Below, in pieces: positions 12,074-12,453 of a stretch of 64,000 nt of DNA; the stretch's first letter is position 1, and each line of letters starts with the position of its first letter. Under the pieces are notes generated by a model. That model searched no databases. It worked only from the letters and a program-made list of their open reading frames with translations, and was not told the DNA's origin. A program made the translations under genes and the position numbers. Source of the DNA: a virus (taxonomy: Duplodnaviria; Caudoviricetes); the IMG/VR virus record IMGVR_UViG_3300001528_000580, positions 192,001-256,000 of that record, one strand, 5' to 3'.

Positions 12074-12191
12074 ACGATGTGCTATAAAAAGTTTCAACGT
12101 AGTTGATTATAAGTTCGATTCTTATTATTCCACCAAAAATTAGGAATATTGTTGGCGATTGGTAAGCCAAACTTTTTATGTTATTCATCGT
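12074..12191 (+). ncRNA. tRNA-derived ncRNA 1: circularly permuted tRNA elbow (T-arm, closed acceptor stem, D-arm) on a shared handle; YrlA/Y-RNA-like architecture
   Basis: Outer ACGATG/CATCGT, inner ATAAAAAGTTT/AAACTTTTTAT, CAACGTA, ATAAG-TTCGATT-CTTAT, TATTCC-ACCAAAAATTA-GGAATA, TGGC-GATTGGTAA-GCCA. Confidence 0.7.
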
Positions 12192-12205
12192 ATTTTATAT
12201 TTTTT

Positions 12206-12333
12206 ATGAGGTGGTTTGAAAAAGTTTCAACGTAAATCAATGGTTAGATTAATTTGCTGATAACAAATATGCTGTTGGTTCGATTCCAACCGTTTTTAGA
12301 TCGTAAGATCAGGCTTTTTCTAGTATTCCTCAT
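12206..12333 (+). ncRNA. tRNA-derived ncRNA 2: D, anticodon (GAT, Ile) and T arms on the shared handle, no CCA
   Basis: Outer ATGAGG/CCTCAT, inner GAAAAAGTTT/AGGCTTTTTC, CAACGTA, AATC/GATT, ATTTG-CTGATAA-CAAAT, GTTGG-TTCGATT-CCAAC. Confidence 0.7.
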
Positions 12334-12346
12334 TTTATAAGTTTTT

Positions 12347-12453
12347 TTGAGGTGTTTGGTAAACTTTCAACGTATATTGGCTATACATTTGTCTGCAAAA
12401 CAAACTAAGTGGTTCGAGTCCACATTTAAAGGAGTTTTCCGCTTATTCCTCAA
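12347..12453 (+). ncRNA. tRNA-derived ncRNA 3: D, anticodon (GCA, Cys) and T arms on the shared handle, no acceptor stem
   Basis: Outer TTGAGG/CCTCAA, inner GGTAAACTTT/GGAGTTTTCC, CAACGTA, TTTGT-CTGCAAA-ACAAA, GTGG-TTCGAGT-CCAC. Confidence 0.7.

What the first reader, a model, noticed from the sequence alone, without database searches (positions are those of the whole stretch)
12074..12453. Three tandem ncRNAs with one shared handle and swapped tRNA-derived cargoes, one circularly permuted
Seen: each element has an outer 6-bp stem, an internal loop starting TG on the 5' side and ending TATT on the 3' side, a 10-11-bp inner stem, and invariant TTTCAACGTA (CAACGTA at 12095, 12228, 12368). The stems covary (CGATG/CATCG vs TGAGG/CCTCA; AAAG/CTTT vs AAAC/GTTT). 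Cargo 1 is T-arm, acceptor 3' strand with internal ACCA, linker, acceptor 5' strand, D-arm, so the handle replaces the anticodon arm. Cargo 2 has D, anticodon (GAT) and T arms with a 4-bp acceptor remnant. Cargo 3 has D, anticodon (GCA) and T arms and no acceptor stem. None can end in a free CCA without processing. They follow tandem promoters and a boxA-like site and precede tRNA-Gln. Established: bacterial YrlA Y RNAs join a Ro60-binding stem to a permuted tRNA elbow like cargo 1, but I do not recognise the Ro-binding bulged helix in this handle and no Ro60 gene is in the window. Inference: a modular RNP family whose protein-bound handle displays tRNA parts, for example decoys for anticodon nucleases or adaptors for tRNA repair (Tpt1 lies 2 kb downstream).
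Basis: partly seen in the sequence, partly recalled or inferred. Interest (0 to 1): 0.88.

Follow-up and report, generated by a model that had tools for sequence, protein, structure and literature searches.

The report
Phage tRNA-mimic RNAs sharing one handle
A 441-kb phage makes five small RNAs (three of them here) that share one conserved double-stem "handle" but carry different imitation tRNA parts; they are built like bacterial Y RNAs, yet the phage lacks the protein that Y RNAs bind, so they are probably an undescribed variant of tRNA-mimic RNA.

Summary
The three elements are as described. The same handle occurs twice more about 115 kb upstream in this complete 440,868-bp phage. One copy carries only a Lys(UUU)-type anticodon hairpin. 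The other carries a complete circularly permuted tRNA-Ile(GAU).

Across the five copies, 89% of handle pair positions are paired and 8 of 18 pairs show two-sided changes. The unpaired letters (UG, UAUU, UUCAACG) stay constant.

All copies follow rrn-style promoters and leaders and are co-transcribed with real tRNAs.

The design matches Y RNAs: YrlA for elements 1 and 5, Yrn1-like for elements 2 and 3. Membership fails, however:
- Rfam YrlA scores 30.6 bits at best against a cut-off of 69.
- The Ro60-contact motif is absent.
- The whole genome has no TROVE/Ro60 and no DUF2828 gene.

The phage does encode RtcB, an Rnl-type ligase, Tpt1, two CCA-adding-type enzymes and genuine tRNA-Ile, Cys and Lys.

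My reading is a Ro60-independent family of tRNA-mimic RNAs, most likely decoys or adaptors for tRNA-binding enzymes. The function and the handle's partner are inferred.

I found no homologue of the handle in IMG/VR, JGI metagenomes or GenBank phages. This scan has flagged analogous RNAs with a different handle (ACAGCAA) in other phages.

The parts
11919..11946 (+). Promoter P1 (TTGACA, 16 nt, TGnTATATT extended -10)
   Evidence: 11 of 12 matches, TG present
11997..12024 (+). Promoter P2 (TTGACT, 16 nt, TGCTATATT extended -10)
   Evidence: 10 of 12 matches, TG present
12027..12073 (+). rrn-style leader: AGTATTGAAACA, hairpin CAAGGA...TCCTTG (12037-12057), boxA-like TGTTGTTTGAAAA (12059-12071). 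The handle of element 1 starts 3 nt later.
   Evidence: the same promoter plus leader precedes the genome's tRNA clusters and handle RNA 4. The boxA resemblance (E. coli TGCTCTTTAACAA) is from my own knowledge.
12074..12191 (+). Element 1. Handle: ACGATG/CATCGT outer stem, UG(C) and UAUU loops, 11-12-bp inner stem. Cargo: CAAC-GUA-GUUG hairpin (12095-12105), T arm (12109-12125), acceptor 3' strand + ACCA (12126-12135), linker, acceptor 5' strand (12143-12148), D arm (12152-12170). YrlA-type permuted topology with the anticodon loop lost.
   Evidence: (MFE -27.6, z -3.4)
12206..12333 (+). Element 2. Handle: ATGAGG/CCTCAT. Cargo: unpermuted tRNA-Ile(GAU)-like body (12229-12294) with a 4-bp acceptor remnant AACG/CGUU, plus an extra GAUC-GUAA-GAUC hairpin (12299-12310).
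   Evidence: (Rfam tRNA 50.1 bits, model 4-67)
12347..12453 (+). Element 3. Handle: TTGAGG/CCTCAA. Cargo: D arm, anticodon arm UUUGU-CUGCAAA-ACAAA (GCA) and a 4-bp T arm (12372-12423); no acceptor stem. The anticodon stem is identical to that of the phage's genuine tRNA-Ile at genome 328287.
   Evidence: (27.3 bits, model 10-63)
12467..12540 (+). Genuine tRNA-Gln(UUG) with encoded CCA, last gene of the transcription unit
   Evidence: (57.8 bits, full model)
12549..12580 (+). Intrinsic terminator closing the unit
   Evidence: 11-bp stem followed by a T run
14533..15081 (+). Tpt1/KptA RNA 2'-phosphotransferase. Context only; no demonstrated link.
   Evidence: PF01885, E 1e-48

Best explanation
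These are three of five paralogous small-RNA genes of one phage. All five are built on the same plan as bacterial Y RNAs. A conserved handle brings the 5' and 3' ends together: a 5-6-bp outer stem, an asymmetric internal loop UG(N)/(U)UAUU, a 10-12-bp inner stem, then UUCAACG. A variable module imitates part or all of a tRNA. The transcripts start from host-type rrn-style promoters and leaders, are co-transcribed with real tRNAs, and are probably cut out of the precursor at the AU-rich spacers and/or in the handle (inferred). The handle most likely serves as a common stabilising and protein-recognition module. The cargoes are an elbow with a closed acceptor, Ile-GAU and Cys-GCA anticodon arms on tRNA bodies, a bare Lys-UUU anticodon hairpin, and a whole permuted tRNA-Ile. 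They engage proteins that normally bind tRNA. The most likely use is competitive mimicry, that is, decoys for host enzymes that cut or modify tRNA during infection, or adaptors that bring such enzymes or repair enzymes to the handle's partner. Shown here: the sequences, the fold support, the covariation, the tRNA likeness, the transcription signals, the copy number, and the absence of Ro60. Inferred: expression as discrete RNAs, protein binding, and the decoy or adaptor role.
For: Five copies share one handle. The stems covary and the loop letters stay invariant, which points to selection at the RNA level on both structure and specific unpaired bases. The cargoes keep tRNA hallmarks: UUCGAKU T loops, GG-containing D loops, and 7-nt anticodon loops CUGAUAA (twice), CUGCAAA and CUUUUAA. 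Copy 5 becomes a complete tRNA-Ile(GAU) cloverleaf once un-permuted in silico, and it is the only element that Rfam YrlA touches (30.6 bits). None has a free CCA end, and the phage separately encodes genuine tRNA-Ile (two), Cys and Lys (two) with CCA, so the mimics are not needed as tRNAs. They share promoters and leaders with the tRNA clusters and are co-transcribed with tRNA-Gln or tRNA-Leu. The genome invests in tRNA repair and supply: RtcB, an Rnl-type ligase, Tpt1 and two CCA-adding-type enzymes. The same RNA island holds orphan Cas12a-type repeats, a published kind of RNA decoy (PMC10651486). A decoy role for a Y RNA's tRNA-like domain has been proposed in print (PMC7790460, Discussion). 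Both topologies are known among Y RNAs: handle in place of the anticodon arm, or at the acceptor end (PMC4201824).
Against: There are no expression data. No partner protein was identified: TROVE, DUF2828 and RNase III are absent, and no gene is shared by the two loci apart from HNH endonucleases. Element 1 has no anticodon loop, so a pure anticodon-nuclease decoy does not explain every member. All covariation comes from paralogues within one genome. No homologue was found elsewhere, so conservation across lineages is untested. Individual MFE z-scores for elements 2-5 are modest (-1.3 to -1.9).
Confidence: 0.55

Rival explanations
1. They are true Ro60-type Y RNAs that use the host's Ro60 (Rsr). 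The phage supplies only the RNA and hijacks or blocks the host Ro60-PNPase machinery.
For: Y-RNA-like architecture. Rfam YrlA gives a full-length though sub-threshold match to copy 5. YrlA also has a 6-bp outer stem, an internal loop and an inner stem in its Rfam consensus (alignment). RtcB, which accompanies Ro60 and Y RNAs in Salmonella (PMC7790460), is present in the phage.
Against: The GNCGAAN0-1G Ro60-contact motif (PMC4201824) is absent from all five 5' ends. The YrlA score is 30.6 against a cut-off of 69, and the handle pairs are flagged as non-matching. Described YrlA genes lie within 4 kb of Ro60 (PMC4201824), and here there is none in 440 kb. Only about 5% of bacteria have Ro60 (PMC4201824). 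I could not identify the host.
Confidence: 0.1
2. The handle is only a processing and stability stem, an RNase III-type site like the stems that flank rRNAs or the T7 early processing signals. It binds no dedicated partner, and the released tRNA-like cores act alone.
For: In three of five copies the handle begins 3-7 nt after a boxA-like element, as the 16S processing stem does in rrn operons. Sixteen to eighteen stacked base pairs with an asymmetric internal loop resemble T7 R1.1-type RNase III sites (my own knowledge). AU-rich spacers (UUUAUA) follow most copies.
Against: Invariant unpaired letters (UG, UAUU, UUCAACG) alongside covarying stems are more than RNase III is known to require. The genuine tRNAs in the same transcripts lack such stems. 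The phage has no RNase III of its own.
Confidence: 0.2
3. They are precursors of working tRNAs (permuted or split tRNA genes) that are matured by RNase P, 3' trimming and CCA addition.
For: Copy 5 contains every tRNA-Ile part. Element 1 encodes ACCA after its acceptor strand. M. smegmatis YrlA is cut by RNase P and receives CCA (PMC4201824). The phage has two CCA-adding-type enzymes.
Against: There is no way to remove an 18-bp helix inserted at position 26/27 or at the acceptor end, and no archaeal-type bulge-helix-bulge or splicing endonuclease is expected in a bacterial host. Elements 2-4 lack acceptor stems entirely. The phage already has genuine tRNA-Ile, Cys and Lys.
Confidence: 0.07
4. 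They are decaying tRNA pseudogenes or duplication debris with no function.
For: Truncated or rearranged tRNA bodies. ARAGORN miscalls two of them as tRNA-Ile. No homologues were found elsewhere.
Against: Compensatory changes in 8 of 18 handle pairs with conserved loops. Intact T and D loops. Dedicated strong promoters. Five copies at two distant loci.
Confidence: 0.05

Closest known systems
YrlA Y RNAs of bacteria and mycobacteriophages (Rfam RF02553; Chen et al. 2014, PMC4201824)
   Same: The ends are closed by a stem, internal loop and stem. The tRNA-like domain runs V region, T arm, closed acceptor stem, D arm (elements 1 and 5). T and D loops are kept. A phage-encoded precedent exists.
   Different: The handle sequence differs and the GNCGAAN0-1G motif is absent. 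No Ro60 gene is nearby or anywhere in the genome. Rfam score is far below the cut-off. Copy 5 also keeps a full anticodon arm. The same handle is reused on non-permuted and minimal cargoes.
Deinococcus radiodurans Yrn1 Y RNA (described in PMC4201824)
   Same: T- and D-like arms with an anticodon-arm-like hairpin between them, and the protein-binding stem at the acceptor end. This is the topology of elements 2 and 3.
   Different: Yrn1 binds Rsr through a conserved bulged helix and tethers PNPase. Neither was found here. No model of Yrn1 was available to test against.
Phage 'ACAGCAA-handle' tRNA-mimic RNAs with a DUF2828 Ro60-like protein
   Same: One handle with interchangeable tRNA-derived cargoes. 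The recurring cargoes include a permuted tRNA-Ile(GAU) and a bare Lys(UUU) anticodon arm. They sit in tRNA clusters of large phages.
   Different: The handle here is longer and different, with two stems and UUCAACG. ACAGCAA is absent from the elements and not enriched in the genome. No DUF2828 gene is present. I did not see those other sequences myself.
RNA anti-CRISPRs / solitary repeat units (Camara-Wilpert et al. 2023, PMC10651486)
   Same: Phage small RNAs that imitate a host RNA in order to occupy its protein partner. Cas12a-type repeats lie in the same RNA island as handle RNAs 4 and 5.
   Different: Those imitate CRISPR repeats, not tRNAs, and have no shared handle.

Membership tests
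YrlA (RF02553) | Score at or above the Rfam gathering cut-off (69 bits) | tested here: not met
   Copy 5 scores 30.6 bits. Elements 1-3 give no YrlA match even at E <= 10.
YrlA (RF02553) | GNCGAAN0-1G motif near the 5' end (presumed Ro60 contact; PMC4201824) | tested here: not met
   The 5' ends read ACGAUGUG, AUGAGGUG, UUGAGGUG and UAGAGGUG (twice).
YrlA (RF02553) | Encoded within about 4 kb of a Ro60/TROVE gene on the same strand (PMC4201824) | tested here: not met
   No PF05731 match in the complete 440,868-bp genome, while the control genomes gave matches.
YrlA (RF02553) | tRNA-like domain in the order V, T arm, closed acceptor stem, D arm | tested here: met
   Met by element 1 and copy 5. 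Not met by elements 2, 3 and 4.
tRNA (RF00005) | Full cloverleaf with a 7-bp acceptor stem and a free 3' end for CCA | tested here: not met
   Element 2 matches model positions 4-67 only, element 3 positions 10-63 at 27.3 bits (below 29), and element 1 gives no match. The ARAGORN tRNA-Ile calls at 12225-12299 and genome 90101-90172 are artefacts of the mimicry.
Permuted tRNA genes of archaea and red algae | Bulge-helix-bulge motif at the joined ends, cut by the splicing endonuclease and followed by circularisation | tested here: not met
   The handle has a 3-5/4-7-nt asymmetric loop between 6-bp and 10-12-bp stems, not 3-nt bulges separated by 4 bp. The context is bacterial: tmRNA and sigma-70 promoters.
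ACAGCAA-handle / DUF2828 phage RNAs (scan notes) | ACAGCAA after a short closing helix, and a DUF2828 gene in the phage | tested here: not met
   No ACAGCAA inside any of the five elements; genome count is 26/23 against about 17 expected per strand. No PF11443 match.
Ro60-type RNP in general | A ring-shaped TROVE + vWA protein partner | tested here: inconclusive
   The only vWA hit is a lone 212-aa protein (window 59304-59942). Its 302-aa upstream neighbour looks AAA_21-like by language-model features, not TROVE. No structure prediction was run, and the host genome was not examined.

The most novel reading that the evidence does not exclude
This is a Ro60-independent, phage-specific RNP or decoy system. 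An unidentified phage or host protein grips the UG/UAUU handle, and the five RNAs present tRNA parts (Lys-UUU, Ile-GAU and Cys-GCA anticodon arms, and elbow plus acceptor) as competitive inhibitors of host tRNA-cleaving immune nucleases. That would make it an RNA-based anti-defence, parallel to RNA anti-CRISPRs, working alongside the phage's own RtcB/Rnl/Tpt1 repair enzymes. Together with the different-handle families noted elsewhere in this scan, it would mean that large phages have repeatedly evolved handle-plus-tRNA-part RNAs.
Probability: 0.3. Interest if true: 0.9.

Novelty: new variant of a known kind. Interest (0 to 1): 0.7.

Why it matters
Y RNAs that mimic tRNA are known only as partners of Ro60, and their function in bacteria is still open. 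Here the same design exists without Ro60. One handle is reused on five different tRNA-derived cargoes in a single genome, including a minimal Lys anticodon hairpin. That separates the handle from the tRNA mimic as two independent modules and gives a defined bait for finding the partner. It also offers a simple set of constructs for testing whether phage tRNA mimics blunt tRNA-targeting defences. On the practical side, two of the five are miscalled as tRNA-Ile genes by a standard tRNA finder.

Tried and rejected
**Searches for the handle elsewhere**
- Exact-pattern scans of IMG/VR for the handle motif returned only coding or repeat chance hits.
- A 22-base two-gap handle pattern in JGI metagenomes gave one eukaryote-like chance hit.
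- blastn and megablast against GenBank phages returned only tRNA-Gln, tRNA-Arg or T-arm matches.
- Handle model R1 found nothing significant in a 635-kb Lak-type megaphage.
- R1 is limited: it cannot span cargoes longer than about 35 nt, so it did not re-find elements 1-3 or copy 5. I replaced it with a scripted descriptor search.
- The MAFFT alignment of whole elements (A3) put the 3' strands out of register, so I did not use it for a second model.

**Searches for related phages**
- Queries with the upstream ORF, Tpt1 and RtcB found none in IMG/VR.
- The downstream 260-aa protein has one 92%-identical relative among 5.8 billion proteins.

**Host identification**
- A Cas12a spacer and the rrn-like leader gave no match or only chance matches. 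The host's Ro60 status is therefore untested.

**Partner search**
- TROVE, DUF2828 and RNase III are absent. My first DUF2828 accession was wrong.
- The unknown 424-aa and 503-aa proteins beside the RNA ligase match no solved structure by sequence.

**Readings rejected**
- Micro-ORF or leader peptide: ATG...stop frames exist in elements 1 and 2, but in different frames relative to the conserved motif, and copy 4 has none.
- Integron attC-like site: UUCAAC resembles RYYYAAC, but it has no paired partner at the 3' end.
- T-loop mimic by UUCAACG: its two leading U residues are paired in the inner stem.
- K-turn: there are no tandem G-A pairs.

Full report
**Where the window lies**

The window is bases 192001-256000 of a complete 440,868-bp phage genome with direct terminal repeats and 25% G+C. 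It carries 33 ARAGORN tRNA calls (two are mimics, see below), a tmRNA and a Cas12a locus.

**Check of the observation**

- CAACGTA lies at 12095, 12228 and 12368.
- Each element is closed by a 6-bp outer stem, an internal loop (5' UG(N), 3' (U/G)UAUU) and an inner stem of 10-12 bp.
- Element 1 (12074-12191) folds with a z-score of -3.4 into handle, small hairpin, T arm, a 6-bp acceptor stem closed by a linker with ACCA encoded after its 3' strand, and D arm.
- Rfam's tRNA model matches element 2 at 50.1 bits over model positions 4-67 (anticodon GAU). It matches element 3 at 27.3 bits over positions 10-63 (GCA). So both have tRNA cores without a normal acceptor stem.
- Two extended -10 promoters, tRNA-Gln and a terminator bound one transcription unit.
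- Tpt1 lies 2 kb downstream.

**The family has five members**

A handle-only covariance model found a fourth copy at genome 88491-88570 (39 bits, E 2e-8). Its 36-nt cargo is little more than a UAGA-CUUUUAA-UCUA hairpin, that is, a Lys(UUU)-type anticodon loop.

A fifth copy lies at genome 90104-90245, directly upstream of a genuine tRNA-Leu. Its cargo holds every part of a tRNA-Ile(GAU) in permuted order: anticodon arm, variable loop, T arm, a 7-bp acceptor stem closed by a 17-nt loop, then the D arm. When I rejoin the parts in normal order in silico, ARAGORN draws a complete tRNA-Ile cloverleaf.

Element 1 has the same plan with the anticodon arm shrunk to CAAC-GUA-GUUG.

A scripted structural descriptor run over both strands of the genome returns exactly these five, all on the + strand and all with UCAACG. 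It also returns four weak AT-rich hits that lack the motif.

**Evidence that the handle is a selected RNA structure**

With the five copies placed in one register, 89% of the 90 pair cells are standard pairs. Eight of 18 pairs show changes on both sides, for example C-G/U-A/A-U at outer pair 2 and G-C/C-G at inner pair 10. None of 2000 column shuffles reaches this pairing. Sliding the 3' strand by 1-3 positions drops pairing to 41-58%.

The unpaired UG, UAUU and UUCAACG stay constant. Covarying stems together with fixed loop letters are the usual signature of a specific recognition site, but that step is inference. All this covariation is among paralogues in one genome.

**Expression signals**

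The same promoter plus leader precedes the genome's tRNA clusters, copy 4 and element 1. It consists of an extended -10, AGUAUUG..., a hairpin, then a boxA-like UGCUAUUUGAAAA. A boxA-like element also sits 4 nt before copy 5. The handle RNAs are therefore made in the same way as the phage's tRNAs and together with them. There are no expression data.

**What the cargoes are**

T loops (UUCGAKU), GG-containing D loops and canonical 7-nt anticodon loops are kept.

The cargoes are not recent copies of the phage's own tRNAs. However, element 3's anticodon stem is identical to that of the genuine tRNA-Ile at 328287, so its GCA loop may derive from GAU.

The phage also encodes genuine tRNA-Ile (two), Cys and Lys (two), all with CCA. 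The mimics are therefore redundant as tRNAs and cannot be charged as they stand.

**Comparison with Y RNAs**

Chen et al. 2014 (PMC4201824) describe two relevant RNAs.
- YrlA has a Ro60-binding stem plus V, T, closed acceptor and D arms. This is the plan of element 1 and copy 5.
- D. radiodurans Yrn1 has T and D arms flanking an anticodon-like arm. This is the plan of elements 2 and 3.

The design is therefore known, but membership fails on three defining features.
- Rfam YrlA gives 30.6 bits against a cut-off of 69 for copy 5 and nothing for the others.
- The GNCGAAN0-1G motif is absent.
- There is no TROVE gene in the whole genome, although the control genomes gave matches.

There is also no DUF2828 and no RNase III. 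The only vWA hit is a lone 212-aa protein whose neighbour looks like an AAA_21 ATPase.

No gene is shared by the two loci apart from HNH endonucleases near copies 4 and 5.

**Context that bears on function**

The phage encodes RtcB and an Rnl-type RNA ligase in one cluster at 162-166 kb, as well as Tpt1 and two CCA-adding-type nucleotidyltransferases. The island that holds copies 4 and 5 also contains two Cas12a-type repeats behind an rrn-style leader. RNA mimics of CRISPR repeats are a proven phage anti-defence (PMC10651486). Hughes et al. 2020 (PMC7790460) suggested that YrlA's tRNA-like domain might competitively inhibit an anticodon nuclease. These points make a tRNA-mimic decoy or adaptor role the most economical reading. 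Nothing here tests it, and element 1, which has no anticodon loop, needs a different target such as an enzyme that binds the elbow or acceptor.

**Search for homologues**

I found none.
- Three IMG/VR pattern scans gave nothing.
- One JGI metagenome scan gave nothing.
- Three GenBank-phage BLAST searches gave nothing.
- A model search of a Lak-type megaphage gave nothing.
- Neighbouring genes, Tpt1 and RtcB have no close relatives in IMG/VR.

The lineage is sparsely sampled.

**Earlier notes of this scan (AI notes, used as leads only)**

The notes describe analogous RNAs in other large phages that join a different handle (ACAGCAA) to permuted tRNA-Ile or Lys anticodon arms and travel with a DUF2828 Ro60-like gene. 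I tested both marks here and both are absent. If those notes hold, this locus is a second, independent handle for the same kind of cargo.

**Verdict**

This is a real five-member, Ro60-independent family of handle-closed tRNA-mimic RNAs. It works like a Y RNA in design but is not a member of YrlA. The function is inferred: a decoy or adaptor for tRNA-binding enzymes. The partner is unknown.

Noticed in passing
genome 88660-88750 (L126:1670-1760), outside the window: Two Cas12a-type repeats (AUUUCUACUUAUGUAGAU) sit directly behind an rrn-style promoter and leader, more than 100 kb from the phage's own cas12a (window 35292-38852). The array of that cas12a uses a different repeat (AAUUUCUAAUUUGUUAGAU). 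They are candidate RNA anti-CRISPR or processing signals.
   Followed up: partly
genome about 88740-89050 (L126:1740-2050) and downstream of the leader at genome 86489: G+C-richer structured RNAs sit behind the same leader and have no Rfam match.
   Followed up: no
genome 161977-165800 (L163:5972-9771, - strand): An RNA-repair cluster: RtcB (395 aa) and an Rnl-type RNA ligase with an OB domain (355 aa), separated by three small ORFs and followed by unknown 424-aa (phrog_2087) and 503-aa proteins.
   Followed up: partly
window 45126-46061 and genome 23291-23719: Two PolyA_pol/CCA-adding-type nucleotidyltransferase genes in one phage.
   Followed up: no
genome 256421-256495 (just beyond the window end): A tRNA with anticodon CUA (amber suppressor type), called 'Pyl' by ARAGORN.
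   Followed up: no
window 12225-12299 and genome 90101-90172: ARAGORN annotates parts of element 2 and copy 5 as tRNA-Ile(gat). Automated annotation of this phage will over-count tRNA-Ile genes.
   Followed up: yes
window 62461-62550: Rfam tRNA match at 38.7 bits that ARAGORN does not call. It may be an unusual tRNA inside the large tRNA cluster.
   Followed up: no
genome 87700-92100 (L130:9714-14115): Three HNH endonuclease genes with zinc ribbons flank the island that holds handle RNAs 4 and 5.
   Followed up: no
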